A stretch of 64,000 nt of DNA, from assembly GCA_030390025.1 (NCBI GenBank), contig JASTWF010000324.1:124001-188000 (forward strand), in the 5' to 3' direction. Below are positions 6,976 to 58,836 of this stretch, in pieces (the first letter of the stretch is position 1; each line of letters begins with the position of its first letter). Source of the DNA: Squalus acanthias. Taxonomy: Eukaryota. Position numbers and translations under genes: made by a program. The notes beneath the pieces are model-generated. The model was given only the letters and a program-made list of their open reading frames with translations, was not told where the DNA came from and searched no databases.

Positions 6976-7028
6976 AGGGCAGACAGGGCCTTGGTTTAAT
7001 ATCTCATCAAAAGGACGAGACCTCTAGC

Positions 7029-7715
7029 AGTGCAGCGCTCCGTCAGTGCTGCCCCTCCAACACGCCCTCAATACTGCCCCTCCGACAGTGCAGCACTCCC
7101 TCAGTACTGCCCCTCCGACAGTGCAGCACTCCCTCAGTACTGCCCCTCCGACAGTGCAGCACTCCCTCAGTACTGCCCCTCCGACAGTGCAGCACTCCCT
7201 CAGTACTGCCCCTCCGACAGTGTGGCGCTCCCTCAGTACTGACCCTCCGACAGTGCAGCGCTCCCTCAGTACTGCCCCTCCGACAGTGCAGCACTCCCTC
7301 AGTACTGCCCCTCCGACAGTGCAGCACTCCCTCAGTACTGCCCCTCCGACAGTACGGCACTCCCTCAGTACTGCCCCTCCGACAGTGCGGCGCTCCCTCA
7401 GTACTGCCCCTCCGACAGTGCAGCACTCCCTCAGTACTGCCCCTCCGACAGTACGGCACTCCCTCAGTACTGCCCCTCCGACAGTGCAGCACTCCCTCAG
7501 TACTGCCCCTCCGACAGTGCAGCACTCCCTCAGTACTGCCCCTCCGACAGTACGGCACTCCCTCAGTACTGCCCCTCCGACAGTGCGGCGCTCCCTCAGT
7601 ACTGCCCCTCCGACAGTGCAGCACTCCCTCAGTACTGCCCCTCCGACAGTACGGCACTCCCTCAGTACTGCCCCTCCGACAGTGCAGCACGCCCTCAGTA
7701 CTGCCCCTCCGACAG
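7029..7715. repeat. 33-bp minisatellite, left block (~21 units)
   Basis: Unit CAGTGCAGCRCTCCCTCAGTACTGCCCCTCCGA. Confidence 0.97.
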
Positions 7716-10997: not shown

Positions 10998-11144
10998 ACT
11001 GGAGTGTCAGCCTAGATTATGTGCTCAAGTCTCTGGAGCGAGACTCAATTCCACAACCTACTGAAGTGTGAAGCTTCTCAGATATGTGACTCATGAGCCT
11101 ACAGATATCTGTACATTAAAGCTAGGAGCTGACCAGTCTCAGAT

Positions 11145-18725: not shown

Positions 18726-19222
18726 TTTTTTACATTTGACTCCGTGCGCAACGCCGGGGGAATCAATAAAAGTCTGCAGATATATATTGCTGCATAAATA
18801 TAAATAGATAACATGTATGCACCACATTAGCATGCAGTGTTTATACATTTTTTGCTGCATGCATCAAAATGTGAAACAGACAACTTGCACATTAACCAGC
18901 CATGTTAAATATTTCAGTGCTGACAAAAGTGTTGACTTAATGTAGTATAATTATAATTATTATAATAATAATAGCACCTACCTTGCACATGCTGTGCAGT
19001 TTAAGCTCAGTGTGTGACAAGGGTGCCTTTACATTGCTGACTGATGGATGGGTGGCCTGGCCTGGCCCACCCCCTGCACCAACACTGACTCCCAGGCTCC
19101 ACACTGGCCGCTAGGCCCGGCTGACGGGCCAAAATGGCGGCGCGGCCGGGTGACCGGCGCCAGCCCCCGGCCCTCGCCCGCCTGCCCCAGCGGCCTCTCC
19201 CCAGCCCCCGGCCCGCACTCAC

Positions 19223-19267
19223 CATCAACTTCATCGCCTTGTCGTGTAAGATCGAGTCGGGCTCCAT
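19223..19267 (-). CDS. FBXW11: Coding exon 1 of a beta-TrCP family F-box/WD40 gene (FBXW11/BTRC-like); rest of gene presumably left of the window
   Basis: MEPDSILHDKAMKLM followed by phase-0 donor GTGAGT; recalled N-termini: FBXW11 MEPDSVIEDKTIELM, BTRC MDPAEAVLQEKALKFM; located in a CpG island. Paralog assignment uncertain. Confidence 0.8.
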
Positions 19268-19810
19268 AGTGCGGGGGGTGGTGATGTCCCGCGGCGGGGG
19301 GGAGCCCTTGCCTCCTTCTCTCTCTCTCTCCCCCCCCCACGCACAAGGCCTCGGTCTCTTGAGGTAAATAAAAATTTTCGACGACGATGAAGGACGGCCG
19401 GTCGGACAAACAGCGGCACCGCCTCCCGCAGCTAGGCCGCGGCGACCACCGCGCCTGCGCGCGCCCACCGGCCCCCGCCGCGCTGCCCGCCGGGAGTTGT
19501 AGTCCGTGCCGCCCCCGCCGGCCGCGGCCCGCCGCGCATGTGCCCGGCGCCGGGGAACTACGACTCCCAGCAGGCGCCGCGCGCGGGGGGGCTGGCAGGC
19601 GCCCGCTGTGCCCGCCGGGAGCTGTAGTTGGCGGGCGCGCCGTGTGCCCGAGCCGCGCCGCCCGCTGCCGACATTGCTCTTCCGAACGAAAATGTGAGCG
19701 GCTGTTAACGAAATTTTTTTTCCCCCTCCTGACGGAAACTCTCGAGAGGTGGTGGTGGGCTGGGGGGGTGGTTGACCTGCCACCTCCTGGAAGGCGTGGG
19801 GTGGGCGAGG

Positions 19811-20089
19811 ATGAGGAACCAGCTGTGGAGCGGCGCGCCGCCCTTCCGCAAGGTGCCCGACCGGCGGATCCGCAAAGCCCGCTTCAAGGACCGCGACCTG
19901 CGCGTGCTGATCGACTCCGTCATGGAGAGGCGGGGCGACATCTTCGGCGAGGGCGGCCAGCCGCCCACCATGCAGAGCCGCCGCCAGGCCTGGCTCTTCG
20001 TCATGGAGAAAGTCAACGCCGTCTCGGGCACCCGCCGCACCTGGGAGGAGGTGCGCAAGAAGGTTCACGACCTGAAGAAGAGCACCAAG
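19811..20089 (+). CDS. Exon 1 of Harbinger-derived Myb/SANT-like DNA-binding protein gene (MSANTD/NAIF1-like)
   Basis: MRNQLW...RKARFKDRDLRVLIDSVMERRGDIFG...AWLFVMEKVNAVSGTRRTWEEVRKKVHDLK (Myb_DNA-bind_5-like trihelix); donor AAG/GTAAGA, phase 0. Confidence 0.88.
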
Positions 20090-20189
20090 GTAAGACCGCC
20101 CGGCGGCGTCATCTGGGCTCCTCCGCCTCGCCCCCCGCACCACTCGCCCTCAAATCTCGGCCTCCCACATGGTGCCACAGTCTCTGCTT

Positions 20190-20622
20190 CTGCTCCAAGG
20201 GCCCAGTGTTGGGAGGCAGCTCTCTGGTTGGACATATTCCTGGAGCTTTCATCACATGTCCTCCAACTGCCCCGCCCAGTTAAACAGCCTCTTTTTTTAT
20301 CCTCCCCAATATTTTTACAACTAACAAAAATGAGAAATACGCACAATTTTGCATTGCATACCTTTTACAGCACAGAAACGCCATTCGGCCCAACAGGTCC
20401 GTGCCGGTGTTTATTCTCCACACCAGCCTCCTCCCACCCCTCTTCATCTCATCCTATCAGCATATCCTTCTATTCCTTTCTCCCTCATGTGTTTATCCAG
20501 CTTCCCCTTGAATGCTATTCGCCTCAACTACACCCTGTAGTTTAACACGCCTGTGATTTTTTTTCCTGAGCTGCTCGCAGCAGTGTCCTGGAGATTAATC
20601 CTTAATTCCTGGAGACTCCAGC
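20190..20622 (-). mobile_element. MITE remnant (same family as 50156-50395) interrupted by a CR1 3' end, in intron 1
   Basis: TTGGACATATTCCTGGAG... and CCTGGAGATTAATC...GGAGACTCCAG are reverse complements of parts of 50156-50395; CR1 tail at ~20355-20540. Confidence 0.6.
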
Positions 20623-20841
20623 ACAACCCTAAGCATGACTGTTACTTTTATTAAAGGCGCACACACGCACAAAGACTTTACTGACAACACAGAAATGTGA
20701 GCAAGAATGTGCCAAGTGTTCAAAGTGAATACAGCAGCATTATGCAAACGGCATGATGGACAATGTGTGTTGGAACTGCAGGAAGGCATTTGCGTGGTGC
20801 GAATTGCTCTGTTCTAATCTCTGCTGCTTTTATCTTTAAAG

Positions 20842-21004
20842 GAAAAACTCGCTTATAACAGAAGATCGCGCCAGGTATCGGGTGGCGGCCGGCCAGACAT
20901 CAAAACATTGACAGAGTTCGAGAATGACATGATCCTTTTATTCGGCAAAGATAGCTTTGAAGGCCTTGATACTGTGGATCTTGGTGTCATGTCAAGACTC
21001 AGTG
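20842..21004 (+). CDS. Exon 2 of the Myb/SANT-like gene (163 nt)
   Basis: Acceptor TTTTATCTTTAAAG; EKLAYNRRSRQVSGGGRPDIKTLTEFENDMILLFG with the family (T/S)GGG motif; donor G/GTGAGT, phase 1. Confidence 0.85.
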
Positions 21005-21170
21005 GTGAGTGTATAAATAAAATATTTTATGATTTTTGTGAAAGGTAACACAAACGTATCCGTACACACTGATTGTGCACAAGTGCATCCGACTGTTTGT
21101 AATGAAACTGCAGAGCTGAAATGGATGTGAGCCTCCGTACTCATACCTTGCCATCTGTATCTCTTCGCAG

Positions 21171-22009
21171 ACCAAGGAGAAACAAGCGGATCATCAACCA
21201 TAGCTGCCAAACAGCACCATACACCCAAGTACCAAATGTCACCCCCTCGACATGAAGCAGGCACCAGCACAGATACACCCACTGGAGGAGATGGTAGTGT
21301 TGAGGATGAGGAGGAGCTGGGTGAGTCACTGAACATTAGTGAGGAAGGGGGACCAATATTGGTAGATGACGAGAGGTCTTCTTTTGAAGGGTGGAGGCCC
21401 CACGTGCTGGGCCCTCCACTTGAGGCAGATGCAGATACAGATCTCAGTGGGCCTGCTTTCAAACGGAGGCTGTTAGAACACGAGTTCAGTGTTGAACAGT
21501 CGCTTGCCTCCATACACACAACAGTGGAAGATGGTATGGTTATGTTGGACCAACGGTTGTGTGCACTACAGTCTGCCATTGAGCATGTGGCAACACCTGT
21601 GGCGTCTGCAGTGGAGACCTCGCTTACCCAGGCCTTAGACACAGTCGGGTCGTCGCTTATGAATGCTCACACTGCTGCTATAGAAGTTTTGGGGTCAAAA
21701 CTCCAAGAAGCTGTCAAGGCAGGCTTCAACTCACTTGGAGAGCGATTGCAGGCAACCATGGCAGAGGGATTCCAAAGTCTGATAGAAGCCCAGTGCTCTA
21801 TGCTCACACAGATTATTGGTCAGCGTGAGAGGATGGCCTCCACTAGTGGAGTAGCACAGGCTCGTCCAGTTGGCAGTCATTCTAGCGGGGGTTTGGTGCC
21901 ACCAAAAAACCCCGCGCAGGTGAGTGCAGGTGCTGTCTCTGAAAGTCTTGAGTCCAGAGCGACTCAGCACCAGAGACCTCTGGCACTGATGCAGGTCCAT
22001 CAGGGTTAG
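21171..22009 (+). CDS. Exon 3 of the Myb/SANT-like gene (spliced product ~426 aa if it stops here)
   Basis: Acceptor CTCTTCGCAG; phase 1 joins in frame to ORF 21236..22009; acidic region, DADTDLSGPAFKRRL motif, then coiled-coil-like segment. Confidence 0.82.
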
Positions 22010-23354
22010 TTGCAGATACAGGTAGCGGGACTTCTGTATTCTATGCAGCTACAAAGTTGGCTCTAGGTGCTAACTTGTGTAGAAACACTGGGGCATCAGC
22101 ACCGAGTCCTGATGCTTTGCCCCCCCCCCCCAATCCCGATGCTGAGCCTGTCACTGCCAGACCACGCAGGCCGTTAGCAGCTGGTACAGCACGTGCTCTG
22201 CTCAGTGTGGTGTGTTTCAAAACGTGCTTTTATTTAAAATTGGAGTTTGAAATGTTTTGAGACCCAGTGAGAAAAGCACCTGTTGGGTGGCTTGTTCCGC
22301 GGTCAGGTCAGCAGGGACAGGATGTGCAGCAGAACTGGAGCAGGCGGGTGAGGGGGGCGTCTGCAGTATCGGTACTTGGATGGGTGCGGGAAACAAACCA
22401 TTGAGACTCAAGTGAGCAGGCAGAGGATAGAATGGTGCAGGATAACACACCAGTGACTCACCCTTCTGCAGTTCCCTTTATTAATTCAGATTTTTTTTTA
22501 TTATACGCGGAATAATGCTGCTGGGGGGTTTGTCTATTTGAATCTGGCGGTTTGGAAAGGGTAAAACATCCGATCGGTGAAGTTCACCAGCAAACGCTTA
22601 AAGCCTCCGCCTGATACTCTTGTGTGCCATTTCTGCATAAGCATTAACCTATTTAAGTAGCACGCGCAGGAATATATTACGGGCACTTTAAGCCTTTGCG
22701 TTTTGAATTTTGAAGCCCGGAAATGTTACCCTCAGCTGGCGTTGCTCATTGGCACGCCTTCTACATTGTCAGACCGGCCAGCTTCACATAGATTAACATC
22801 CCACTCCCCTCCCCTCCTTCCCAGCATTAAAACACAGATACTAAATTCGAAAATGGATTGTCCCGTCAGTGAGTGTGCTGCTTCTAGAGAGCCCCAGGAA
22901 CTGTACGCTGGGAAGGCTACAAGCCGGCCCAGGCTCGGCACTGGAAATCATTCTTATTTGGGGGGGGTGGGGGGGAGGTGGGGGGAGTTCAATGCACCCC
23001 CAATATTAACACCGGGGAGGCAGTTACGTCCTCCTGCTCCCTGCATCGGCACCGACGCAGTTGGCTACACAGCCATCCGCCAGTGCTAGTCCTTAAATCG
23101 CTTAGTAGTAGGCAATATACACGAGCAACATGGAGAACCCGCATGAGAGACACAAAGGGGTGATGTGGGAGTGGAAGACACTAGGCATGTACAGCACTGC
23201 TCAACTGAATAAATTGAATTTACTTTTACTAGAGCTTGCGGTCTTTCCTTCTTTCATTGCACAGAATCTTCTGAAGGGTCTTGTCCAGAAGCAAACCTCA
23301 TGGGGGTCATATTCACTTCTCTGGAAAAGACAAAATATGACTAATTGAATAGCA

Positions 23355-25410
23355 TAGAATTACATCAGAAGTACAGCACAGAAACAGGCCGTTTGGCCTG
23401 ACTGGCCTATACCGACATTTATACTCCACACGAGACTCCTCCCACCCCTCATCATCTCACCCTGTCACCATGTCCTTCTATTCCTTTCTCCCTCGTGTGT
23501 TTATCTAGTTTCCCCTTAAATGTATCTATTCTATTCGCTTCAACTACTCCCTGTGGTAGCGAGTTCCACATTCTCACCGCTCTCTGGGTAAAGAAGTTTC
23601 ACCTGAATTCCCGATTGGATTTATTAGTGACGATCTTATATTGATGGCCCCTAGTTCTGGTCTCCCCCACAAGTGGAAACATCTTCTCTACGTCTATCCT
23701 ATCAAACCCTTTCATAATTCTAAAGACCTCTATCAGGTCACCCCTCAGCCTTCTCTTTCCTAGAGAAAAGAGCCCAAGTTTGTTCAATTTTTTCTAATAA
23801 GTATAGCCTCTCAGTTCTGGTATCATCCTTGTAAATCTTGTTTTTTGCACCTTCTCCAGTGCCTCTCTATAATATGGAGACTAGAACTCTGCACAGTGCT
23901 CTATGTGTGATCTAACCAAGGTTCTGTACAAGTTTAACAGAACTTCTCTGCTTTTTAATTCTATTCCTCCAGAAATGAACCCAGTGTTTTGTTTACCTTT
24001 TTTATGGCCTTATTAACCTGTATTTCTACTTTTAGTGATTTATGTATCTGGACCCTAGATCCCCTTGCTCCTCTACCCCATTTAGACACTTATTTTCCAA
24101 GGAGTATGTGGCCTCTTTATTCTCCCTACCAAAATGCACCAGTACACATTTATCTATACAGCAGTTTGGTGGTTGTAAATATATCCAAAAATAATTAACA
24201 GTCCCCAATTGAAGAGCTTACTGAAAGAACTGGAACATAGCAACAGGAGGAGGCCATTCAGCCCCTTGGGCCAGTTCTGCCATTCAGTTGGATCATGGCT
24301 GATCTGTATCTTAACTCCATTTACTTGCCTTGGTTCCGTAACCCCTAATACCCGTGTCTAACAGAAAACTTAGCAATCTCAGTTTTGAAATTTTCAATTG
24401 ACCCCCAGCCTCAACAGCTTTTTGGGGGAGAGAGTTCCAGATTTCCACTACCCTTGTGTGAAGAAGTGCTTCCTGACATCACCCTGAACGGCCTGGCTCT
24501 AATTTGAAGGTTCTGCCCCCCTTGTTCTTGACTCCCCCCACCAGAGGAAATAGTTTCTCTCTCTCTACCCTATCAAATCCTTTAATCATCTTAAACACCT
24601 CGATTAGATCACCCCTTCATCTTCTAAACTCAAGGGAACACAAGCCCAGTCTATGCAACTTGTCCTCATAATTCAACCCTTTTAGCCCCGGTATCATTCT
24701 GAACAGGAGAATCATGATCCTAAATCCATCTGTCTTATTTATATATCTATATCTCACATATTAAAAATGATTTATCTGTGCATGTTCTCTGTCAGTCGCA
24801 CTACATGTGCCAGATTCTGGTGCCACACTTTGTAGATGTGACTCAAACTGAAACAGCAGCAAATCAGGGCTGAGAAGGCAGACAAACTACAAATCAAAAC
24901 CAGCCGGGAAACTATCAATGAGAAACTACAAAGGACTTAGGTAAAAACTAATAGAGAATCTCACAGCACAGAAGGAGGCCATTCGACCCATCGTGCCTGT
25001 GCCGGCTCTTTGAAAGAGCTCTCCAATTAGTCCCAGTCCCCAGCTCTTTCCCCAGAGCCCAGCAAATTTTTCTTTTTCTAGTATTTATCCAATTCCCTTT
25101 TGAAAGTTACTATTGAATCTGCTTCCACCGCCCTTTCAGGCAGCACATTCCAGATCACAACAACTCGCTGAGTTAAAAAAAATTCTCCTCATGTCACCTC
25201 TGGTTCTTTTGCCAATCACCTTCAATCTGTGTCCTCTGGTTACCGACCCTCCTGCCAGTGGAAACAGTTTCTCCTTATCTACTCTATCAAAACCCTTCAT
25301 GATTTTGAACACATTCTATCAAATCTCCCCTTAACCTTCTCTGCTCTAAGGAGAACCACCCCAGCTTCCAGTCTGTCCACATCACTGATGTCCCTCATCC
25401 CTGGGACTAT
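23355..25410 (-). mobile_element. Cluster of three CR1 3' fragments (~23355-24160, 24230-24700, 24955-25410)
   Basis: LGLFSL.KRRLRGDLIEVF...TRTRGH motifs and CR1 3' UTRs on the minus strand. Confidence 0.85.
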
Positions 25411-25819
25411 TTTCAAGTGAAGGGTAAAGGGTTGAGTTAGTGGGGATGGAGGAAGGAATGGAGTGCTGGAATCAGTGACTGGGAGGGGGCAGCGTAAGCG
25501 GGGTCAGGGGTTGACTCGATGGGTTTCTGGGGGAGAACGGGCTGAGGTATGTTGGGGTGGATAGGTGCTATATCATGAAAGGGGTTGGGCTGGATGGGTT
25601 TCTGGTCTGTGAATGGCACAGTGCCGGAAGCATGCTGACTCACCCAGTTCTCTCCAGTGTATCTCAGTAAATGGCCTGCAGTCTGATTAATCATTCACTG
25701 CGTGGCACTGAACATCAAACCCACTTAACCTAATCAGCAGAGACCAGAGAATCCCAGCAACCAGAGAGCAGGATCAATCAGTCCTTCAACATACTGAGAA
25801 TTAGATGGGAATTATCAGC

Positions 25820-26330
25820 AATGGGAAGGGGTTTGGTCCATTGGGATTGTGTACAGTGGGAGTAATTGGGAAGGGGTTTGGTCCATTGTGATTGTGTACA
25901 GTGGGAGTGAATGGGAAGGGGTTTGGTCCATTGGGATTGTGTACAGTGGGAGTGAATGGGAAGGGGTTTGGTCCATTGGGATTGTGTACAAGTGGGAGTG
26001 AATGGGAAGGGGTTTGGTGCCTTGGGATTGTGTACAGTGGGAGTGAATGGGAAGGGGTTTGGTATTTGGGATTGTACAGTGGGAGTGATTAGGAAGGGGT
26101 TTGATCCACTGGGATTGTGTACAGTGGGTGTGATTGGGAAGGAGTTTGGTATTTGGGATTGTGTACAGTGGGAGTGATTGAGAAGGGATTTGGTCCACTG
26201 GGATTGTGTACAATGGGAGTGAATGGGAAGGGGTTTGGGTCCACTGGGATTGTGTACAGTGGGAGAGAATGGGAAGGCGTTTGGTCCATTGGGATTGTGT
26301 ACAGTGGGAGTGATTGGGAAGGGGTTTGAT
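25820..26330. repeat. 45-bp minisatellite, short diverged array (~11 units)
   Basis: Same unit as 52896-58738. Confidence 0.93.
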
Positions 26331-26539
26331 CGGTGAAAATGAAACAGCGGAGAGGAGAATAATCCCATTAGAGCAAACCGGAGAGGAATGATGTGTGGGA
26401 TTGGGTCAGAGGTCATTACAGTCAAGTGATACACTGTCTAACATTAGAGAAAATTAGTCCAACACCGGCATCTCCGCATCATAACATTAGAGAAACAGCA
26501 TTTGAAGAGGGGCAGGACCAAGGGACGGGGGAACTTGCG

Positions 26540-29469: not shown

Positions 29470-32400
29470 TATTGACTAGTGATAATGGGGGACTTCAACT
29501 ATCCTAATATAGACTGGGATAGTAATAGTGTAAAGGGCAGAGAGGGGGAAGAATTTCTGAAGTGTGTTCAGGAGAACTTTCTTGATTAGTACGTTTCCGA
29601 CCCAATGAGGGAGGAGGCATTGCTGCATCTGGGTCTGGGGAATGGGGTGGGTCAAGTGGAGCAAGTAGGGGATCATTTAGGGAACAGTGATCATAGTATC
29701 ATAAGGTTTAGATTAGCTATGGAAAAAGACGGAGCATTCTAGAGTAAAAATACTTAATTTTGGAGGACGGGCAATTTCAGTGGATTGAGAATGGATCTGG
29801 CCTGGGTAAATTGGAATCAAACATTGGCAGGCAAAACTAATTGAACAATGGGCTGCCTTTAAAGAGGAGATGGTTCGGGTACAGTCGAGGTACATTTCCA
29901 CAACGGGTTAAAGGTAGGGCAAACAAAGTCAGAGCTCCCTGGATGATGAAAGAGATAGAGAGTAAGATGAAGCAGAAAAAGGGGGCGTATGACAGATGTC
30001 GGGTTGAGAATACAAGTGAGAACCAGGCTGAATATAGAAAGTTCAGAGGGGAAGTGAAAAAGGAAATAAGAGTGGCAAAGAGAGTATGAGAATACGTTGG
30101 CAACTAACATAAAAGGGAATCCAAAAGTCTTCTATAGGCATATAAATAATAAACGGGTAGTAAGAGGAGGGGGTGGGGCTGATTAGGGACCAAAATGGAG
30201 ACCTACGCATGGAGGTAGAGGGCATAGCTGAGGTACTAAATGAGTACTTTGCATCTCTCTTCACCAGGGAAGAAGATGCTGCCAAAGTCATAGTGAAAGA
30301 GGAGGTAGTTGAGATACTGGATGGGATAAAAATTGATAAAGAGAAGTACTAGAAAGGCTGGCTGTATTTTAAGTAGATAAGTCACCAGGACCGGATGGGA
30401 TGCATCCTAGGATGCTGAGGGAAGTAAAAATGGAAATTGCGGAGGTACTGGCCATAATCATCCAATCATCCTTAGATACTGGGGTGGTGCCAGAGGACTG
30501 GAGAATTGCAAATGTTACACCCTTGTTCAAAAAAAGGGTGTAAGGATCAACCCAGCAACTACAGGCCAGTCAGTTTAACCTCGGTAGTGGACAAAATTAA
30601 CAGTCACTTGGACAAGTGCGGATTACAAGGAAAGGAAGCACGGATTTGTTAAAGGCCAATCGTGTTTAACTAACTTGATGAGGTAACAGAGAGGGTTGAT
30701 GAGGGCAATGCAGTTGATGAGGTGTGCATGGACTTCCAAAAGGTGTTTGATAAAGTGCCACATAATAACTTTACATATACAGCAAAGTTGAAGCCCATGG
30801 AATAAAAGGGGCAATGGCAGCATGTATACGAAATTGGCTAAGTGACAGGAAACAGAGAGTAGTGGTGAATGGTTGTTTATCGGACTGGAGGAAGGTACAC
30901 AGTGGTGTTGCCCAGGGGTTGGTACCAGGACCACTGCTTTTCTTGATATATATTAATGACTGGGTGAAGGCGATTGAGGAGGATTCTTGCGATGACCAGT
31001 GGCTGAAGAGCTCCTCCCAGAGTCGCAATGCGGATTCCGCCCACTAAGGGGGACAATGGACATGATCTTCACCGCGCGTCAACTACAAGAGAAATGCAGG
31101 GAACAGCACCAACCGCTGTACATGGCCTTCTTTGACCTCACAAAGGCCTTCGACACCGTCAACCGTTAGGGATTATGGAGTGTCCTCCTCAAATTCGGCT
31201 GCCCTCAAAAGTTTGTCACCATCCTCCGCCTCCTTCACGACGACATGCAAGCCGTGATCCTGACCAACGGATCCAGCACAAACCCAATTCACGTACGGAC
31301 CGGGGTCAAGCAAGGCTGTGTCATCGCACCAACGCTCTTCTCGATTTTCCTGGCTGCAATGCTCCATCTCACCCTCAGTAAGCTCCCCGCTGGAGTGGAG
31401 CTAATCTACAGAACAAACGGGAAACTGTTCAACCTCCGTCACCTCCAGTCCAGATCCAAGGTCGTCCCATCCTCTGTCATCGAATTACAGTATGCAGACG
31501 ACGCTTGCGTCTGCGCACACTCTGAGGTCGAACTCCAAACCATTGTCAACACGTTCACCGAAGTGTACGAGAGCATAAACATCCGTAAGACAAAGGTCCT
31601 CTACCACCCTGCCCCCGCCACACAGTACTGCTCCCCGATTATCAAAATCCATGACGAGGCCTTGGACAACGTGGACCACTTTCCATACCTCAGGAGCCTA
31701 CTGCCAACAAGGGCAGACGTCGATGATGAAGTCCAACACCGCCTTCAGTGTGCCAGTGCAGCCTTCGGTCACCTGAGGAAGAGAGTGTTTGAAGACCAGG
31801 ACCTCAAACCGAGCACCAAGCTCTTGGTCTACAGAGCAGTAGTGATACCCGCCCTCCTGTTTGCTTCAGAGACATGGACCATGTACGGCAGGCACCTCAA
31901 AGCACTGGAGAGGTACCACCAACACTGCCTCCGCAAGATCCTGCCAATCCATTGGCAGGATAGGCGCACCAGCGTCAGTATTCTCGCTCAGGCCAACATC
32001 CCCAGCATCGAAGCTTTGACCACGCTCGATCAGCTCCGATGGACGGGCCACATTGTCCACATGCCCGATACGAGACTCCCAAAACAAGCGCTCTACTCGG
32101 AGCTCCGACACAGCAAGAGAGCCCCAGGTGGGCAGAAGAAATGCTTCAAGGACACCCTCAAAGCCTCCTTGAAAAAGTGCAACATCCCCACCGACACCTG
32201 GGAATCCCTGGCCCAAGACCTGCACAAAGTGGAAGAGAAGCATCCGGGAAGGCGCCGAACACCTCAAGTCTCTTCGCCGGGAGCAAGCAGAAGCCAAGCA
32301 CAAACAGCGGAAGGAGCGCACGTCAACCCAAGCACCCTACCACCCGCCCCTTCAATCACCGTCTGCCCCACCTGTGACAGAGACTGTAGGTCCCACATTG

Positions 32401-35432: not shown

Positions 35433-36020
35433 TCGATGTCATTTATCTCACCTCCTCTCATATTATTTTCAACGTTGGTGGGTCCTGCATGTGGATCTTT
35501 TCCTTCATTTGGATTTCTTAAAATATGGGGAGAAATTGGGTACCTTTGCGCCTTACGTTATCGCCTCCGCGGGGCACTAACGGGGCGCTACCAGCTTAGC
35601 GACCGGGCGCGGCGATAGTACCGAACGCCTGCGAAATTGAAGTGGAGGTTTGCGGCGGTGGTAACCGCTAGCACCACGCTCTCCTGTGGCCGGAGATCGT
35701 GACGTCATCCGGCTGCGCAGCGCCCCGGTAGCGCCCCGGCTCTGAAATTCACTCTCGCCCCCTGCCTGAGTGCCTGTCGTTAGCAGCGACAGGTCGAGGA
35801 GGCGGTCTGCAGTCGGATGAGCGCTGGAGGTGCGCTATATAAAGGCGTCAACATCCGGTTTATTTTTAATCGGCAAAGAATGCTGCCTTGTCAGTTTGAC
35901 ATAGGCAAACAGGCGTGTTGAGCGATTTCAGCGTTTTTCAGTTGAAGGAGTTGTCTGCCTCAGAAAAATTATTCACTTTCATTTAGGTGAGATTTGAAAG
36001 TGCAACATTTCCATACTTTA

Positions 36021-37160
36021 ATGGGGACTGTACTGGCACTGGACCTCGGCCTCCAGCGTCAATGTCGGAGGCAGCGGAGGCAGAGAGAGAGATTGCAAAA
36101 TGTGGCCAGAGGGAGGAGGGCCAACAGGGCTCTCAACAGGAGGCCTTACCCTCCCAGGGTATTCCGGCAGCATTTCCCCTACATCAATCTCACTGAGGAA
36201 CAGTGTGTTAGAAGGCTCCGCTTCACCAAGGACGTGGTCACAGAGCTCTGCCACCTCCTGCAGCCAGACCTCCAGCTTCACTGCAGGAGCACCACGACAC
36301 TCTCATTGGCAGTCAAGGTCACCGTCGCCCTCAATTTCTACGCCAGTGGATCCTTTCAATGTGCAACAGGAGATATAGCAAACATCTCCCAGTTCGCCGT
36401 CCAGTGCTGCATCCGCGAGGTCACAGATGCTCTCTACAGAAGGAGAAGGGACTACATTTCCTTCCCCATGTCCAGAGAGAAGCAGCGCGAGCGTGCATGT
36501 GGCTTTGCCAGGATAGCGGGCTGCCCCATGGTGCAAGGCGCCATTGACTGCACCCACGTCGCTTTGCGGGCACCTCATAACAATCCTGAGGGATTCCGTA
36601 ACTGCAAAGGCTACCACTCACTTAATGTGCAGTTGGTGTGCGACCACACACAGCGAATCCTCACCATCAATGCCCGCTATCCTGGCAGCAGCCACAATGT
36701 CTTCATCCTGCGCCAGACCGGTGTGCCAGCTCTGTCCCAGCCACCACATCAAGCTCGTGGCTGGCTGGTCGGAGACAAGGGCTATCCGCTCTCCACCTGG
36801 TTCATGACTCCCCTCCACAACCCCAACACTCGTGCCCAGCACTCATACAATGAGAGCCATGCCGCCACCAGGAACATCATTGAGCAGACCATCGGAGTGC
36901 TCAAGCAACGGTTCCGCTGCCTTGACCGCTCGGGAGGAGCCCTCCAGTACTCGGCTGAGCGGGTGTCACGTTTCCTCGCCGTCTGCTGCCTGCTGCACAA
37001 CTTGGCCATCATGAGGGCGCAGCCATTGCCACCAGCCATAGCCGCACCACCTCAGGAGGAGGAAGAGGGAGACGAGGAGGAGGAGGAACAGGAGCACGAA
37101 CAGCAGCGAAGGAGGAGGCCGCCACTCCATCGGCCTTGTAGAAGGGCGGTCTGTGACTGA
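36021..37160 (+). CDS. Harbinger (HARBI1-like, DDE_Tnp_4) transposase, 379 aa, probably inactive
   Basis: ALNFYASGSFQ, GAIDCTHV, N(C)KGYHSLNVQLVCD, ARYPGSSH(N), GDKGY, IEQTIGVLKQRFRCL, CCLLHN; TATA-like TATATAAA at ~35836; the usual HD aspartate reads N. Confidence 0.92.
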   Translation: MGTVLALDLGLQRQCRRQRRQRERLQNVARGRRANRALNRRPYPPRVFRQHFPYINLTEEQCVRRLRFTKDVVTELCHLLQPDLQLHCRSTTTLSLAVKVTVALNFYASGSFQCATGDIANISQFAVQCCIREVTDALYRRRRDYISFPMSREKQRERACGFARIAGCPMVQGAIDCTHVALRAPHNNPEGFRNCKGYHSLNVQLVCDHTQRILTINARYPGSSHNVFILRQTGVPALSQPPHQARGWLVGDKGYPLSTWFMTPLHNPNTRAQHSYNESHAATRNIIEQTIGVLKQRFRCLDRSGGALQYSAERVSRFLAVCCLLHNLAIMRAQPLPPAIAAPPQEEEEGDEEEEEQEHEQQRRRRPPLHRPCRRAVCD

Positions 37161-37364
37161 CTCATCAGACTTCGGTTCCAATAAATTCAAAGCCACGTCC
37201 CGGTTGCTGAGCACGTCCCTATCATTCCATCAATTTCTCATTCCATACCACACCCCATGAAATGAGACACAGCCCATGAAATGAGACACAGCCCCAAATG
37301 TGCAGCATTCCAATAATAAATTTATCCAAATTCACCAACCACATATATACAGCAACAATATTAA

Positions 37365-39244
37365 CTAATCACCCTTGTGCAAACCCTTACTTGCCCTCTT
37401 TACAGTGCCTTTTCCTAATCTACTGCTCCTACGTAGTGTCTCCCCAGTGGCTGCAGCAGGGCTGGTGGAAGGCTGCTGAGTGTCGGTGCCACAGGTTACA
37501 GATGGCCTTGCAGGACGCCCTCAACCAGCTCTGGGCCTGGAAGGCCCGGCTGTACACTGCACCACCTCAGGCTGGGCAGCAGCAGTCTGGCCTGGCTGGA
37601 TAACAGGCAGCGACAAGGGCAATGGCGGAGTGACAATGGTGGGATCAGGAATGCTGTCATCCTGAGAGAGGACAGCAGGTTCCTGCTCCCCTGACACACT
37701 GCCATTCCCCCGGGGCAGCACCTCAGCATCCCTACCAATTTGCTGCAGCACAGATTGCTGGGCTGCTGCGACACCATGAGATCCCCGGTGGACTGTGGTG
37801 GACCCAGCGACGATGGCAACAGTCAGAGCTTTCGTAGCATCAAGCTGAGACTGCATGAGAGCAGTCTGAGACTCGATTGACTGCATTACAGCACTAAGAT
37901 GTTGCGTGGCTTCCGCCTGTGCTGCAATGGAAGCTGCGACATCACCCATGACACGCGTCATGAGGTCTCGATCCGCACGGTCGCACTGGGAGTCCACCAT
38001 CCTCTGCAGAGTGGAAATGATGGGCTCCATGGTGTGCGCAGAGTTCTGTGCAATGTTGGAGGCGGACTCCTCCACGCTCCTTACCATTGCCGAGAGGCTC
38101 TCGGGCACCCTTGCCATTGCACCTATCATCTCGCTGTGCATGCCCATCACCCTTCTTGTGAATGCCTCCCCATCGAGGTCCTCATCTGAGTCGTGTGCAG
38201 CAGAACTCGCGCGTGAACTCGCCCTCCGGGGAGCTGGCTCCTGAGCTACCCTTTCTCCCTGGCCTTGCTGCAGCCCGCTCGTCCCCGGTGCATCACCCAG
38301 TGCAGACCCCTCTACTAAACTTGCCTCTAAAGATCGCGTAGTGCCAGTATCTGAGGTTGTGCCTGAGGGTGAGAGATGCAGTGACGCGGTGCTTTGCTCC
38401 TCCTCCTCTTCTCCTTCCTCACTCTCAGTGGGGGGCTCAGTGACAGGCTGGTCATCTGGTTGCTGATTCTCTGAAAGCATAAAGGCACAAGACTCGTGTT
38501 AAGGTGAGGGCAGGGGGGCAGGAAGGGAGCAAGGAATGCAGACAGTATCAGGAGCTGGAAAGTGGGTAAGGCTAGTGGTGTGAGGGGGAAGAGGGATGAG
38601 AGAAGGAGAGGGGATGAACATACCGTTGTTGCCCCCTAGGGGTCGATGTTGCCGATGGCCATGGCGAACAGCACCTGCTGCCGAATGAGTCGCAGCACTC
38701 GCTCCTCAAGGTCTGAGAGCTGTTGGAGCTGCGCATCACCCCAGCCTGTTCTCTGCTGCTCCCTCCTATTGTGGGCCATCTTGGCCTGCAATGGAAAGGA
38801 ATGTGTGTGAGTCAGAGTCCAGCTGTGTGTTTGGGAGATATGCCTGCTGTAGTTGAATAGCTGTGATTGTCGGCAAGGCGTGAGATGTGATGTGAGTTGA
38901 GTAGGTGGAGATGTTTGGTGGGTGAGTGCTGGGGGTGTGGTGGTTTGTGCAGTGTGTACAGACTGAGGTTCAGATGCTGGTATGTAGGACCTGTTGAAGC
39001 ATGTACTCACCCTGACCAGCCGAGTGAGGTGGTTGAATTTCTTGCGGCACTGTGTCAGGCTGCGTTCCAGCACACTACTGGCCGAGACCTCCTGGGCCAC
39101 TTCCCTCCACATTGCCCTGAACACCTGAGGCGATGGCCTCCTTCCAGTGTCCGGGAGCAGCACTGCCCTCCTTCGCTCCACTCCAGCCTCCAGTGCCACG
39201 TCTGTGAACTGACGAGCTCTCTCCCTGGGAGTGGGAACAGCCAT
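37365..39244 (-). pseudogene. Harbinger Myb/SANT-like gene, exons 39244-39011, 38785-38624, 38470-37365; disabled
   Basis: MAVPTPRERARQFTDVALE...WREVAQEVS...RSLTQCRKKFNHL; GT-AG sites; exon 2 is 162 nt where phases need 3n+1 (frameshift with TAG at 38636-38638); premature TGA at 37521-37523. Confidence 0.87.
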
Positions 39245-41037
39245 CACGATCGGGGATTGAGTTCCTTGCAGGTCGCCCTCACAGCCAGCAATGCTGATAA
39301 TGAGGATCTGCACAATGATACAACCTTCCCTTTATGAGCTGGAAGGGGTCAGTGTGAAGGATCATTCTCGATTGCATAGCACCTGAAATTCATTATTGCT
39401 CTGCTGGTAGCGCCCCTGTAGCGCCCTGCTTACGTCATTAGCGCTCGATTTAGCGCTCCAGTTCTTTCCAGGAGCGCTAACAGCCAATTTAGGGGAAGCT
39501 CAGACTCATTAGCGCCTGGTGCTAATTTTTCACGATTTCAAAAATTAGCACCCCAAACGGGTCGATACCGAATTTCTCCCCCACATACTTTTAAAATCAA
39601 CATTATCCTTCACTCTCAGCATTTTAAAATCCTGGATCATGTCCCCTTTCAAACTTCTTTTCTCCAATGCCAACATGTTGACTCGCTCCTCATAACTTTA
39701 AAATCAATGATATGGATGCTTGAGATTAGAGGTGAAACTGGTACCGACACAGGAATCACAAGCCGAGTGCCTCCATCTATTCCCAAATTCCGACGATTCT
39801 TTGAATTCTCAACTAAGCATCGGTTTCTAATCCCATGCAAAATATATGATTTACATAAGCAATCTGCATGAAAAGGCAATACTTTTTTTATGAGGTATGA
39901 GAAAAGATGAGGATGATTTATGGGACCTGAAAGGACCTGGTGTGCATTGTGAAAAATTTATCAACTGTGTAAAACCTTCTTCTAAGATCAGACGTTGCTG
40001 AGGAACAGGATGGTGATTAATGGCAGTCTCACCTACACTGGGAGATGTGTGAGCTGCAATAACACAATAAGTCAATCGGCAGTTAATCTGCTCCTGTCAG
40101 CATATGTATTGGCAAATTAGACATTTGCTAGCAGAGGTTTATTAATTATGGAATGGAGTTATGAAGGGAACACGTGATTATTTGAAGAGAGGCAGCATAG
40201 CCAGGTTTATTCAACACAGCTCTCTCAACTTATATCTGCACTGTGCTGAAATTAAGTCTCGTTGCACTTTGTCCTCTTCCAATTCATTCTTTCCCAGGTC
40301 CTCCAAACTGTGCAACTCCTCACCTCCCTCAGTCTCCCCTTCCTCCTACAATCTGCAGGCTTTTAAGACCCATGGTTGGTGTCACCTTATCTCAGCTGCT
40401 TCACTTATCCGGCCTTCTCTTTTACTCCTTTCAGTCTTGCTGCTGTCCTGCACTGAGAGGTTTGAACTATCAGGAATGACCGAACAGGCTGGGTCTCTTT
40501 TTCTCCAGGATGGTGAAGGCTGAGGGGTGACCTGATAGAGGTCACTTTGGACTTGGCCCTTCACTTTGAACCCCAACCATGGTCAATGTGTGGGAAGTCT
40601 AGCGGTCACAGTCTGGGAGGTGCGGCCAGAAACTTGTTCATGTGTCCTCGTGCCTTCAAACTCGTTTCTAACAATTCACAAAAAAAATCCATCTAAAAAC
40701 TGGAAGCTACTTTGATGCTTTTTGCCGCATTTGTTTTCGCCAACGTGCGGACTTCCAAAATCGCAAGTTACTTACGACCAGCCTTGTGAAGGGCAGGTTG
40801 ACGACAGATGTCGGGAAGGATTTCTCTGCACGGAGGGCGGTCCACAGCTGGAGCAGGGTTTGCAAGAAGAGTGCCTGAGGCCAGGACACTGGGCTCATTT
40901 AAGAAATAGCTGAACACTAACAGGGAGAGGGCTCCCGGAGTCTGTTGTCTGGAAGAGTGAGACTAAATGGGCCAAAGAGCCTTTTCCTCTGAACTCATCT
41001 TGTGGAAATATTTTTATGTCATATTTCAAAGATGGCA

Positions 41038-58738: not shown

Positions 58739-58836
58739 TAGAAACATAGAAACATAGAAACTAGGAGCAGGAGTAGGCCATTCGGCCCGTCGAGCCTGCT
58801 CCACCATTCAATACGATCATGGCTGATCATCCAAAT
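58739..58836 (-). mobile_element. CR1/V-SINE 3' tail running into the gap
   Basis: Near identical to 44248-44328; (CATAGAAA)n end. Confidence 0.8.

What the first reader, a model, noticed from the sequence alone, without database searches (positions are those of the whole stretch)
19811..22009. Candidate undescribed domesticated Harbinger Myb/SANT gene
Seen: three exons with canonical splice sites splice into an uninterrupted ~426-aa ORF; exon 1 is embedded in the host CpG island; intron 1 has accumulated old TE insertions while exons stayed open; no transposase ORF or TIRs were found around it. It aligns with the Myb gene of the Harbinger element in this window in all three exons (RKARFKDRDL/RARQFTDVAL; EKLAYNRR/AKMAHNRR; DADTDLSGPAFKRR/DSDEDLDGEAFTRR) with the same intron phases (0, 1). 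Known: Harbinger Myb proteins were domesticated in vertebrates as NAIF1 and MSANTD genes, and NAIF1 partners HARBI1. Inference: an independent, possibly chondrichthyan-specific domestication that could act as a transcription factor or bind Harbinger ends or transposases.
Basis: partly seen in the sequence, partly recalled or inferred. Interest (0 to 1): 0.85.

Follow-up and report, generated by a model that had tools for sequence, protein, structure and literature searches.

The report
Domesticated Harbinger Myb gene in sharks
This is a real, expressed, single-copy shark gene that descends from the DNA-binding (Myb-like) gene of a Harbinger transposon and has been kept intact in sharks and rays, adding a cartilaginous-fish member to a known class of transposon-derived genes.

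Summary
Exons 19811-20089, 20842-21004 and 21171-22009 (+) join through GT-AG introns into a 426-codon ORF. Exon 1 is a Myb_DNA-bind_5 domain. Contigs from 4 runs of 4 organisms join exactly at both junctions.

It is single copy in its 3.7 Gb genome. There is one intact paralogue (B, contig C24) and many decayed relatives, some beside Harbinger transposase remnants. Full-length orthologues at 76-95% identity exist in sharks, an electric ray and skates. RefSeq calls them 'uncharacterized', and one is auto-labelled NAIF1.

In a tree, A and B are sisters and a Callorhinchus protein joins them. The next clade holds elasmobranch Harbinger Myb proteins, including the element in this window. Selection is purifying: 26 of 32 listed orthologue differences are synonymous, and A versus B gives dN/dS 0.27.

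Most likely function, by inference: a sequence-specific DNA-binding regulator with a long C-terminal helix for partners.

Not tested: synteny in other species, a tree with genuine NAIF1/MSANTD proteins, and the beta-TrCP identity of the neighbour.

Verdict: a new member of a known kind, of moderate interest.

The parts
19001..20250 (.). CpG island that holds the 5' end and exon 1 of the gene, and also the first coding exon of a divergent neighbour
   Evidence: GC is 0.67-0.72 and CpG observed/expected 0.76-1.12 in 500-nt windows; composition profile.
19223..19267 (-). Head-to-head neighbour: a 15-codon first coding exon (MEPDSILHDKAMKLM) followed by GTGAGT. Its ATG lies 544 nt from the ATG of gene A.
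   Evidence: Read. Its likeness to the first exon of beta-TrCP2/FBXW11 is recalled, not tested. There was no PDB match. No recalled downstream beta-TrCP motifs occur in the window. The beta-TrCP D domain (PF12125) is on C3, C17 and C3838, not on this contig.
19652..19810 (+). 5' untranslated region (minimum extent)
   Evidence: The spliced contigs begin at 19652 (X9), 19675 (X1) and 19714 (X5) (table 8).
19811..20089 (+). Exon 1 coding part, 93 codons: basic arm RRIRKARF and the Myb/SANT-like trihelix domain
   Evidence: PF13873 at E 9.5e-14, 51.5 bits against a cut-off of 21.7. F24, W60 and W77 are invariant in 7 orthologues and paralogues. Helices 26-38, 53-71 and 77-104 in the model.
20090..20841 (+). 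Intron 1 (phase 0, GT..AG), with a dispersed repeat of about 180 bp at 20364-20541
   Evidence: The joint 20089/20842 is seen in 4 of 4 runs. Repeat copies are 85-96% identical across the genome. Very high multi-copy contig depth over 20204-20739.
20842..21004 (+). Exon 2, 163 nt: conserved motif EKLAYNRR...LTEFENDM..FGKE
   Evidence: The motif is invariant in A and B orthologues. Helix 117-130 in the model. Exon 2 has the same length in paralogue B.
21005..21170 (+). Intron 2 (phase 1, GT..AG)
   Evidence: The joint 21004/21171 is seen in 4 of 4 runs. The intron has no depth in X5, X9 and X10.
21171..22009 (+). Exon 3 coding part with the TAG stop. It encodes an acidic disordered linker, the motif DADTDLSGPAFKRRLLEHE, a helix of about 130 residues, and the A-specific tail QHQRPLALMQVHQG.
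   Evidence: ORF. Helix 241-370 at pLDDT 70-93. Conservation. Unique in the genome at 100%.
21320..21326 (+). Internal donor-like site G|GTGAGT inside exon 3, at the point where annotated short isoforms leave the long form
   Evidence: Five of 5 short A isoforms (P0012, P0013, P0014, P0016, P0017) diverge right after EDEE(E/A)L. Their next residue is D, A or V, as expected after a retained G. The one B short isoform looked at (P0018, against P0007) diverges at the equivalent place. Sequence read. No joint at this site was listed.
22010..23180 (+). 3' untranslated region (approximate end)
   Evidence: Unspliced contigs run on to 22940 (X1), 23168 (X5) and 23184 (X9) (table 8).
35527..39581 (.). 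Comparator, not part of the gene: a Harbinger element. Transposase ORF at 35991-37160 (+). Convergent Myb-like gene on the minus strand: exon 1 39244-39011, exon 2 38785-38624 with an in-frame TAG, exon 3 ORF 38498-37521.
   Evidence: DDE_Tnp_4 at E 7.4e-36 and PF13873 at E 1e-4. Inverted repeats at 35569-35600/39398-39429 and 35527-35542/39566-39581. Exon reading.

Best explanation
Window 19652 to about 23180 (+) is a three-exon, protein-coding host gene, called gene A here. It descends from the Myb-like (second) gene of a PIF/Harbinger DNA transposon. It lost its transposon context and has been kept under purifying selection in cartilaginous fishes.

Shown:
- It is expressed and spliced as predicted.
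- It is single copy.
- It has orthologues in sharks, electric rays, sawfish and skates.
- It has an ancient intact paralogue, gene B.
- A Callorhinchus protein is the sister of A plus B.

Inferred dating: domestication happened before the elasmobranch-chimaera split, and the A/B duplication happened before the shark-ray split.

How it most likely works (inference from architecture and from what is reported for Harbinger Myb-like proteins and NAIF1):
- The N-terminal basic arm and the Myb/SANT-like trihelix bind specific DNA.
- The conserved exon-2 helix, the DLSGPAFKRR motif and the roughly 130-residue C-terminal helix make protein contacts: self-association, paralogue B, or a transposase-derived partner.
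- The protein would therefore act as a nuclear DNA-binding regulator, with an acidic linker between the two modules.
- A conserved internal donor in exon 3 may give a short form that has the DNA-binding part only.
For: Gene model and splicing: one search gives the 1281-nt CDS with GT-AG introns. In one search, contigs of X1, X5, X9 and X10 (4 organisms, 4 studies) join 20089/20842 and 21004/21171. The unique intron sequence is uncovered.

Domain: PF13873 at 9.5e-14.

Copy number: exon 3 matches at 100% only at its own place. The next best is 58% (C24, intact), then 40% (C5). Of 8500 first-look candidates, 139 were scored, and most of those matches carry in-frame stops.

Transposon origin:
- Transposase remnants lie within 1.5 kb of the A-like exon-3 relics in 3 of 6 loci looked at (L004, L005, L007). 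L005 and L007 have the convergent layout of the in-window element.
- No such remnants lie near A or B.
- These relics match the A/B family and not the six other protein queries tried, P0034, P0026, P0022, P0154, P0036, P0213 and P0028 aside from exon 1 of A and B.
- Intron 1 position and phase are shared with the element.

Orthologues, as global identity to the window protein: Heptranchias 404/425, Chiloscyllium 387/424, Narcine 358/423, skate cluster 322/425.

Tree (43 rows, 144 columns; ultrafast bootstrap / SH-aLRT): A 100/94, with batoids and sharks apart; B 96/91; A+B 98/97; plus Callorhinchus LOC103184966 99/89. The sister clade (91/87) has 14 elasmobranch Harbinger-Myb proteins, including the in-window element.

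Selection:
- Of 32 differences listed inside the CDS for the related organisms, 26 are at third codon positions and 0 at second. Twenty-six are synonymous, or 27 if the two changes in codon 76 are read together. The CDS has 301 synonymous and 977 non-synonymous sites.
- A versus B by Nei-Gojobori: dN 0.24, dS 0.90, ratio 0.27. By region: Myb plus exon 2 0.13, C-terminal helix 0.21, linker 0.53.

Architecture: AlphaFold2 gives a trihelix, a disordered stretch at 131-234 and a helix at 241-370.

Background on Harbinger Myb-like proteins and NAIF1 (DNA binding, transposase/HARBI1 binding, nuclear import): passages of PMC9392472.
Against: - The function is untested. There is no DNA motif, partner or phenotype.
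- The structural model is weak overall (mean pLDDT 59, pTM 0.27), and Foldseek matches are not significant (best E 0.58).
- The list of orthologue differences is partial: 40 rows were shown and 190 were not. Only 7 of the listed differences lie in exon 3.
- dS between A and B is near saturation.
- The runs are only guessed to be RNA by the tool. The argument rests on exon-only cover and exact GT..AG joints.
- The Callorhinchus protein aligns only over the N-terminal 112 residues (45% identity) and sits on a long branch (1.22), so its orthology is not secure.
- No genuine NAIF1 or MSANTD sequences were in the tree.
- Synteny in other species was not examined.
Confidence: 0.78

Rival explanations
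1. Gene A (with B and the Callorhinchus protein) is the cartilaginous-fish orthologue of an already named domesticated gene, above all NAIF1. It would then be neither a separate domestication nor new.
For: RefSeq names the Carcharodon short isoforms of this gene 'nuclear apoptosis-inducing factor 1 isoform X2/X3'. PMC9392472 states that NAIF1, MSANTD1, MSANTD2 and MSANTD4 occur from cartilaginous fishes to mammals (passages), and no separate NAIF1 locus was identified in this genome here. NAIF1 has the same general build, a Harbinger Myb-like domain plus a C-terminal part (recalled).
Against: - The same gene is 'uncharacterized protein' in the other species whose records carry a name: Heptranchias, Pristiophorus, Chiloscyllium, Narcine, Leucoraja, Amblyraja, Rhinoraja, Cetorhinus and Mustelus. 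In Pristis it is 'MYPOP-like'.
- 'NAIF1-like' and 'MYPOP-like' are also given to crayfish, nemertean, axolotl and paddlefish proteins, so these labels are generic.
- The profile search of 1.84 billion representatives drops from at least 368 bits (own group) to 131 bits. Of the hits at 83 bits or more outside the group, all the labelled ones are elasmobranch, Callorhinchus or amphibian proteins of other lengths. None is a bony-vertebrate protein of about 327 aa. NAIF1 is reported as very constrained (omega about 0.02; supplement passage), so an orthologue should score high.
- A separate intact locus on C7 looks like MSANTD4 (recalled) and falls far from A/B in the tree.
Confidence: 0.08
2. It is not a domesticated gene but an old Harbinger Myb gene copy. 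Either it still serves a transposon, or it is a relic whose frame has stayed open by chance.
For: The family is abundant in this genome: 8500 first-look candidates for exon 3 and 58164 for PF13873. A Harbinger element with both genes lies 14 kb downstream. The protein keeps the whole architecture of the transposon protein.
Against: - There is no copy above 58% identity.
- No transposase or TIRs lie nearby.
- The first exon sits in a CpG island.
- Orthologues are intact in at least 7 species with full-length models. Their branching follows the shark-batoid split.
- Substitutions are mostly synonymous.
- Most scored relics have stops within 60-250 codons, which shows what neutral decay looks like here.
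Confidence: 0.03
3. Same gene, different mechanism. Its main role is in transposon biology rather than host transcription. It would bind Harbinger ends or the transposase (or HARBI1) as a host-encoded repressor or cofactor of an abundant Harbinger family.
For: - It keeps the C-terminal domain shared with transposon copies, with the motif D.DL.GPAFKRR found in A, B, P0026 and P0027, close variants in P0022, and DSDEDLDGEAFTRR in the in-window element.
- The closest relics are Harbinger copies of a family with thousands of remnants.
- Harbinger Myb-like proteins and NAIF1 are reported to bind the transposase or HARBI1 and to import it into the nucleus (PMC9392472 passages).
Against: No partner or binding site was tested. 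No intact transposase of the matching family was looked for. A gene conserved for hundreds of millions of years while the related transposon copies are decayed argues for a host role beyond one transposon family.
Confidence: 0.2

Closest known systems
NAIF1 (vertebrate gene derived from a Harbinger Myb-like gene; partner of HARBI1)
   Same: Both have an N-terminal Harbinger-type Myb/SANT trihelix (Pfam Myb_DNA-bind_5) followed by a non-globular or helical C-terminal part. Both are host genes under purifying selection. RefSeq labels one orthologue with this name.
   Different: Gene A is found only in cartilaginous fishes. No high-scoring bony-vertebrate counterpart appeared. It has a paralogue. 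Its nearest relatives in the tree are chondrichthyan transposon-type proteins. HARBI1 binding is untested. No direct comparison with genuine NAIF1 was possible.
MSANTD1-4 (Harbinger Myb-like-derived gene family, Etchegaray et al. 2022, PMC9392472)
   Same: Same kind of event: a recurrent domestication of a Harbinger Myb-like gene, single copy, negative selection, and a predicted DNA- and protein-binding role.
   Different: These genes were dated to the base of jawed vertebrates or of sarcopterygians and are syntenic across bony vertebrates. MSANTD1 and MSANTD2 carry a different Myb subtype (recalled: Myb_DNA-bind_4). An MSANTD4-like ORF exists elsewhere in this genome (C7; label recalled) and is distant in the tree.
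Myb-like protein of autonomous Harbinger elements (e.g. Harbinger3_DR; the element at 35.5-39.6 kb of this window)
   Same: Same three-part build and the same intron 1 position and phase. Shared motifs: R.A(R/Q)F, (E/A)K(L/M)A(Y/H)NRR, and D.D(L).G.AF.RR before a long helical region.
   Different: Gene A has no transposase partner or TIRs at the locus. It has a CpG-island promoter, is single copy and is conserved across species. The in-window element's copy has an in-frame stop.
Plant ALP2/HDP2 and insect PIF/Harbinger co-domesticated Myb-like genes
   Same: They are domesticated Harbinger Myb-like proteins that work as DNA- or chromatin-binding adaptors (search listing and abstracts only).
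   Different: They act with a co-domesticated transposase-derived partner. No such partner was sought or found here.
Drosophila Zeste DNA-binding domain (PDB 5cqq)
   Same: It is among the best, but not significant, fold matches of the N-terminal domain (E 0.66). An atlas cluster named 'zeste family' carries PF13873.
   Different: The likeness covers only the DNA-binding fold and the score is weak. The rest of the protein is unrelated.

Membership tests
Harbinger Myb-like protein family (Pfam Myb_DNA-bind_5, PF13873) | N-terminal Myb/SANT-like trihelix domain scoring above the Pfam gathering threshold | tested here: met
   51.5 bits against a cut-off of 21.7, E 9.5e-14, residues 21-93.
Harbinger Myb-like protein family (Pfam Myb_DNA-bind_5, PF13873) | Homology to Myb genes that lie in elements together with a DDE_Tnp_4 (PIF/Harbinger) transposase | tested here: met
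   The in-window element has PF13359 at 7.4e-36 plus a Myb ORF, which the A1 profile hits at E 1.8e-7. A-like exon-3 relics lie beside transposase remnants in 3 of 6 loci. Tree.
Harbinger Myb-like protein family (Pfam Myb_DNA-bind_5, PF13873) | Gene structure shared with the transposon gene | tested here: met
   Intron 1 has the same position and phase 0. Intron 2 phase 1 is only implied in the broken transposon copy.
Domesticated (host) transposon-derived gene | Single copy, without TIRs or a transposase at the locus | tested here: met
Domesticated (host) transposon-derived gene | Intact orthologues in distant species that branch as the species do | tested here: met
   Sharks against batoids inside clade A (100/94), and 76-95% identity.
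Domesticated (host) transposon-derived gene | Same chromosomal position (synteny) in those species | not testable with these tools
   No other elasmobranch genome can be read here. The identity of the neighbour itself is unverified.
Domesticated (host) transposon-derived gene | Purifying selection (dN/dS well below 1) | tested here: met
   Partial orthologue sample: 26 synonymous of 32 listed differences. A versus B gives 0.27, and 0.13 in the Myb part. A full codeml analysis on orthologues was not possible.
Domesticated (host) transposon-derived gene | Transcribed and correctly spliced | tested here: met
   Exact GT..AG joints in contigs of 4 of 4 runs from 4 organisms, with introns uncovered. 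The tool only guesses that the runs are RNA.
NAIF1 orthologue | Groups with genuine vertebrate NAIF1 in a tree, or is its reciprocal best match | not tested
   No genuine NAIF1 sequence was returned by any tool. A recalled NAIF1 motif searched as a degenerate pattern gave 3 hits, none in a Myb gene.
NAIF1 orthologue | High similarity to bony-vertebrate NAIF1, expected from its strong constraint | tested here: not met
   Among profile hits of 83 bits or more outside the own group, no bony-vertebrate protein of NAIF1 size appears. Non-chondrichthyan hits cover only the N-terminal 130 or so positions.
NAIF1 orthologue | Binds HARBI1 and brings it into the nucleus | not testable with these tools
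   This is a bench assay.

The most novel reading that the evidence does not exclude
Genes A and B, possibly with the further conserved elasmobranch Myb_DNA-bind_5 genes seen here (group C: P0026/P0027/P0034; group D: L013/P0213), form a lineage-specific set of transposon-derived regulators. They would keep the transposon protein's C-terminal partner-binding helix and act as host-encoded controllers of the very abundant Harbinger elements of elasmobranch genomes. The mechanism would be binding of element ends or sequestering of transposase, with the conserved short Myb-only isoform acting as a competitor. That would be a transposon-derived defence against its own family, maintained since before the shark-ray split.
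Probability: 0.15. Interest if true: 0.7.

Novelty: new member of a known kind. Interest (0 to 1): 0.45.

Why it matters
Domestication of Harbinger Myb-like genes is known from NAIF1 and MSANTD1-4, which are shared by jawed vertebrates. This gene and its paralogue show the same process giving genes restricted to cartilaginous fishes and kept since before the shark-ray split.

The published survey used only the elephant shark for this lineage and found no Harbinger transposons there (PMC9179366, passages). This elasmobranch genome is full of them and holds several conserved derived genes.

The gene gives a concrete, testable candidate for a lineage-specific DNA-binding regulator. It also corrects a misleading automatic name (NAIF1) in one RefSeq annotation.

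Tried and rejected
- Homodimer prediction of the C-terminal helix (residues 236-375, two copies): no verdict. It is not used as evidence either way.
- The look-up of sequencing runs: no holder is on record as RNA, and all runs are 'RNA?' guesses.
- Foldseek against the PDB: no match at E <= 0.001.
- PDB sequence search with the orthologue profile and with the neighbour's first exon: no matches.
- Getting genuine NAIF1 or MSANTD sequences failed by four routes:
  - Labelling 30 profile hits gave only '-like' or uncharacterized proteins.
  - The best PF13873 locus tried (L013) turned out to be another elasmobranch-only family.
  - A degenerate pattern from a recalled NAIF1 motif gave 3 hits, none in a Myb gene.
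  - The atlas search gave only generic Myb clusters.
- Test of whether paralogue B lies next to the other beta-TrCP gene: PF12125 is on C3, C17 and C3838, not on C24 or C2495. No beta-TrCP-like exon was seen upstream of B.
- Recalled beta-TrCP motifs in the window: none found.
- Earlier notes of this scan: none for this genome.
- Skate CDADC1 exons near B or in the window: none found.
- Apolipoprotein (E 0.19) and Vinculin (E 0.008, below cut-off) Pfam hints for the helical regions were rejected as compositional.
Full report
**Observation**

Exons 19811-20089, 20842-21004 and 21171-22009 on the + strand sum to 1281 nt. They translate to 426 residues and a TAG stop. The donors are AAG|GTAAGA and GTG|GTGAGT, and both acceptors are polypyrimidine-AG. 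Exon 1 alone matches Pfam Myb_DNA-bind_5 (PF13873) at E 9.5e-14, 51.5 bits against a cut-off of 21.7.

From 19001 to 20250 the sequence has GC 0.67-0.72 and CpG observed/expected 0.76-1.12. Intron 1 holds a dispersed repeat of about 180 bp at 20364-20541. Its copies elsewhere in the genome are 85-96% identical (5980 first-look candidates, 40 scored).

**Expression and splicing**

No run is on record as RNA; the tool marks them 'RNA?'. I laid four runs from four organisms and four studies on 19400-23400. In all four, one contig joins 20089 to 20842 and 21004 to 21171, with GT..AG ends.

Exon depth is flat. Intron 2 has no depth in three runs, and the unique parts of intron 1 are uncovered. The contigs run from 19652-19714 to about 22940-23184 without a further joint. 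Two organisms match with 0-1 differences, and two are about 3-7% different. I read this as spliced transcripts of the gene and of its orthologues, with a 5' UTR of at least 160 nt and a 3' UTR of about 1.2 kb.

**Copy number and transposon relatives**

The window lies on contig C2495 of a 3.71 Gb assembly. Exon 3 (278 aa) matches at 100% only at its own place. The next matches are:
- An intact locus on C24 at 58% identity.
- An intact ORF on C5 at 40%.
- Beyond these, 136 further scored matches (139 scored of 8500 candidates) at about 28-58% identity, most with in-frame stops.

I looked at the six best relics, L003-L008. Three have remnants of a Harbinger transposase within 1.5 kb. Two of these (L005, L007) have it downstream on the opposite strand, which is the layout of the element in this window. 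Gene A and the 20 kb around the C24 gene have none. These relics match the A/B type of protein and none of the other elasmobranch Myb proteins used as queries.

No inverted repeat convincingly brackets gene A.

**The in-window Harbinger element**

- ORF 35991-37160 (+) is a DDE_Tnp_4 transposase (E 7.4e-36).
- The convergent minus-strand gene has a weak Myb_DNA-bind_5 match (E 1e-4).
- Inverted repeats at 35569-35600/39398-39429 flank both genes.

Pairwise BLASTP between gene A and this Myb gene is not significant (E 0.2 and 1.1). A profile of the orthologues finds the element's Myb ORF at E 1.8e-7 among 1141 window ORFs, but not its C-terminal ORF. The C-terminal link is transitive:
- The element's C-terminal ORF is 50% identical to Pristiophorus protein P0036 (E 6e-63).
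- The profile aligns to P0036 over positions 16-351 (E 4.9e-15).
- hhalign confirms that alignment only over the first 117 columns.

Intron 1 lies at the same place and in phase 0 in both genes...DLKKSTK|EKLAYNRR against ...HLTRLVR|AKMAHNRR. The element's exon 3 frame implies a phase-1 intron 2, as in gene A. However, its exon 2 is 162 nt with an in-frame TAG, so this copy is broken.

**Orthologues and paralogues**

Searching with exon 3 returned 14 proteins, and searching with the alignment returned 18. Every one that carries a species name is from an elasmobranch, except one guppy protein at E 1.5e-8.

Global identities of the full-length forms to the window protein:

| Species or cluster | Protein | Identical / aligned | % |
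|---|---|---|---|
| Heptranchias perlo | P0002 | 404/425 | 95 |
| Chiloscyllium punctatum | P0003 | 387/424 | 91 |
| Narcine bancroftii | P0004 | 358/423 | 85 |
| Skate cluster (Leucoraja, Amblyraja, Rhinoraja) | P0005 | 322/425 | 76 |

Partial or short forms of A exist in Pristiophorus, Carcharodon, Cetorhinus, Mustelus and Pristis.

A second group, B, is 59-64% identical to A over the full-length forms. It occurs in Heptranchias, Cetorhinus, Mustelus, Scyliorhinus and Chiloscyllium plagiosum. It also occurs in the sawfish Pristis: P0011 is 79% identical to B and 53% to A. The C24 locus of this genome is B. It is an intact 390-codon gene with the same two intron positions and a 163-nt exon 2.

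Because A and B both occur in sharks and in a batoid, the duplication is older than the shark-ray split.

RefSeq names are 'uncharacterized protein' in most species, 'MYPOP-like' for a Pristis isoform, and 'nuclear apoptosis-inducing factor 1 isoform X2/X3' for Carcharodon.

**Wider family**

The profile search of 1.84 billion representatives gave 958 hits at E <= 1e-3. There is a gap from at least 368 bits (A/B forms) to 131 bits. I labelled 30 hits.
- Those matching over most of the length are all elasmobranch proteins.
- Non-chondrichthyan hits (newts, frogs, axolotl, eel, paddlefish, crayfish, a nemertean) cover only the N-terminal 130 or so positions.
- The labels 'NAIF1-like' and 'MYPOP-like' recur on these unrelated taxa, so they are generic.
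- A Callorhinchus protein (LOC103184966, 414 aa) aligns over 112 N-terminal residues at 45% identity (E 9.4e-20).

**Trees**

A quick tree of 73 rows and a careful tree of 43 rows and 144 columns agree. In the careful tree, the supports (ultrafast bootstrap / SH-aLRT) are:

| Clade | Support |
|---|---|
| A (batoids separate from sharks) | 100/94 |
| B | 96/91 |
| A + B | 98/97 |
| A + B + Callorhinchus | 99/89 |
| Sister clade: 14 elasmobranch Harbinger-type Myb proteins, including the in-window element | 91/87 |

Other intact Myb_DNA-bind_5 ORFs of this genome fall elsewhere. These are a C7 ORF whose start looks like MSANTD4 from memory, and a C18 gene conserved in 10 listed elasmobranch proteins.

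Rows left out of the careful tree: all unlabelled hits except P0055; the short isoforms; and P0011 and P0035, which lack the N-terminus.

**Selection**

One search lists only the best-supported differences (40 rows shown, 190 not). Of these, 32 lie in the CDS. Twenty-six are at third codon positions, six at first and none at second. Twenty-six are synonymous, or 27 if the two changes in codon 76 are read together. The CDS has 301 synonymous and 977 non-synonymous sites. This sample is complete mainly for exons 1 and 2 (25 of 35 differences of the most distant organism), and only 7 of the listed differences are in exon 3.

Between A and B of this genome, Nei-Gojobori gives the following:

| Region | dN/dS |
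|---|---|
| Whole CDS (dN 0.24, dS 0.90) | 0.27 |
| Myb plus exon 2 | 0.13 |
| C-terminal helix | 0.21 |
| Linker | 0.53 |
| Tail | 0.67 |

dS is near saturation, so the ratios are rough.

**Architecture and likely mechanism**

The AlphaFold2 model of the Heptranchias orthologue, made with 7 aligned sequences, is weak overall (pLDDT 59). Locally it gives:
- Three helices in the Myb region (26-38, 53-71, 77-104; pLDDT 70-84).
- A helix at 117-130 in the conserved exon-2 motif.
- Disorder over 131-234, which is acidic.
- One long helix at 241-370 (pLDDT 70-93).

Foldseek finds only weak matches. The first ones are Myb-like DNA-binding domains: Sap1, Zeste and NgTRF, at E 0.6-1.4.

Invariant residues include the basic arm R17-R23, the residues F24, W60 and W77, the exon-2 motif, and DLxGPAFKRRLLEH. 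The A-specific tail QHQRPLALMQVHQG is kept in sharks and Narcine, and is nearly kept in the other A rows.

Passages of PMC9392472 report, citing Sinzelle et al. 2008 (which I did not read), that Harbinger Myb-like proteins bind the element's ends through the trihelix and bind and import the transposase. They also report that NAIF1 binds DNA and HARBI1.

By analogy, I infer a nuclear, sequence-specific DNA-binding protein whose C-terminal helix makes protein contacts. Whether its targets are host genes or Harbinger remnants is open.

**Comparison with what is known**

The kind is known. NAIF1 and MSANTD1-4 are Harbinger Myb-like-derived genes, dated to the base of jawed vertebrates or of sarcopterygians (PMC9392472; abstract, passages, section 28, and a term search of its supplement). 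That work used Ensembl and NCBI for cartilaginous fishes and gives no accessions for them.

A companion paper found no Harbinger transposons in the elephant shark and asked for other cartilaginous fishes to be examined (PMC9179366, passages).

Three full-text searches found no paper on elasmobranch-specific Harbinger Myb-derived genes. The library lacks most subscription journals.

I therefore file the gene as a new, unstudied member of a known kind. Orthology to NAIF1 is unlikely on the similarity evidence, but it was not tested by a tree.

**Not settled**

- The head-to-head exon at 19267-19223 (-) has an ATG, 15 codons and then GTGAGT. It recalls the first exon of FBXW11, but this rests on memory. 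The beta-TrCP D domain is on other contigs, and no further beta-TrCP motif is in the window.
- Synteny in other species could not be examined.

**Verdict**

Novelty: a new member of a known kind. Interest: 0.45.

Noticed in passing
P0035/P0179 (skate proteins): RefSeq 'CDADC1 isoform X1' of Leucoraja and Amblyraja (796 and 752 aa) carries two deaminase domains. After these comes a C-terminal stretch of about 180 residues that is homologous to the C-terminal helix domain of this family (hhalign E 5.5e-15, 36% identity, with the motif EPAFKRRLVEH). This is either a gene fusion or exon capture of the transposon-derived module, or a read-through gene model. No CDADC1 exons lie near gene A or B in this genome.
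   Followed up: partly
window 21320-21326; proteins P0012, P0013, P0014, P0016, P0017, P0018: Short annotated isoforms of gene A in 5 of 5 cases leave the long form right after EDEE(E/A)L. That is where exon 3 has G|GTGAGT. The one B short isoform looked at does the same at the equivalent place. The tails differ between species. This may be a conserved alternative donor giving a form with only the Myb domain and part of the linker.
   Followed up: partly
L003 (G000:C5:114950272-114950850); proteins P0026, P0027, P0034, P0161: There is a further conserved elasmobranch group ('C', 409-522 aa; stingrays, whale shark, zebra shark, Heptranchias, a skate). It has the same Myb plus DLSGPAFKR plus helix build and sits inside the transposon-type clade of the tree. 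It may be another domesticated copy. The intact C5 ORF (40% identical to exon 3 of gene A) was not assigned to any group.
   Followed up: partly
L013 (G000:C18:40470056-40470286, minus strand): Another intact Myb_DNA-bind_5 gene ('D') was found. It has 65-90% identical proteins in 10 elasmobranch records, named 'MYPOP-like', 'NAIF1-like' or uncharacterized, and is unrelated to A/B in the tree. Elasmobranchs seem to hold several lineage-specific genes of this kind.
   Followed up: partly
L011 (G000:C7:45182803-45183030): This is the best PF13873 match in the genome (76.5 bits), in an intact ORF beginning MKQFKRKRKSNFTMKETETLLKEV. From memory it looks like MSANTD4. The label was not tested.
   Followed up: no
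window 35527-39581 and the genome at large: The window holds a nearly complete Harbinger element. Genome-wide there are 58164 first-look candidates for the Myb domain. So Harbinger elements are abundant in this elasmobranch, whereas PMC9179366 found none in the elephant shark.
   Followed up: partly
G000:C3:119737686, C17:77464714, C3838:111020: The genome has three loci with a beta-TrCP D domain (PF12125). Vertebrates are recalled to have two such genes, BTRC and FBXW11. C3838 is an unplaced contig and might carry the rest of the gene whose first exon lies in this window.
   Followed up: no
window 1-3500, 6950-11060, 25780-26440, 52780-58700, 59340-63850; N run about 58830-59340: The window has long tandem satellite arrays with open frames in several phases and strong GC skew. 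An assembly gap lies next to one of them. They were not analysed.
   Followed up: no
window 31170-32432 (+): A 420-aa ORF carries a partial reverse-transcriptase domain (RVT_1, E 7.8e-10). It is a LINE-type retroelement fragment.
   Followed up: partly
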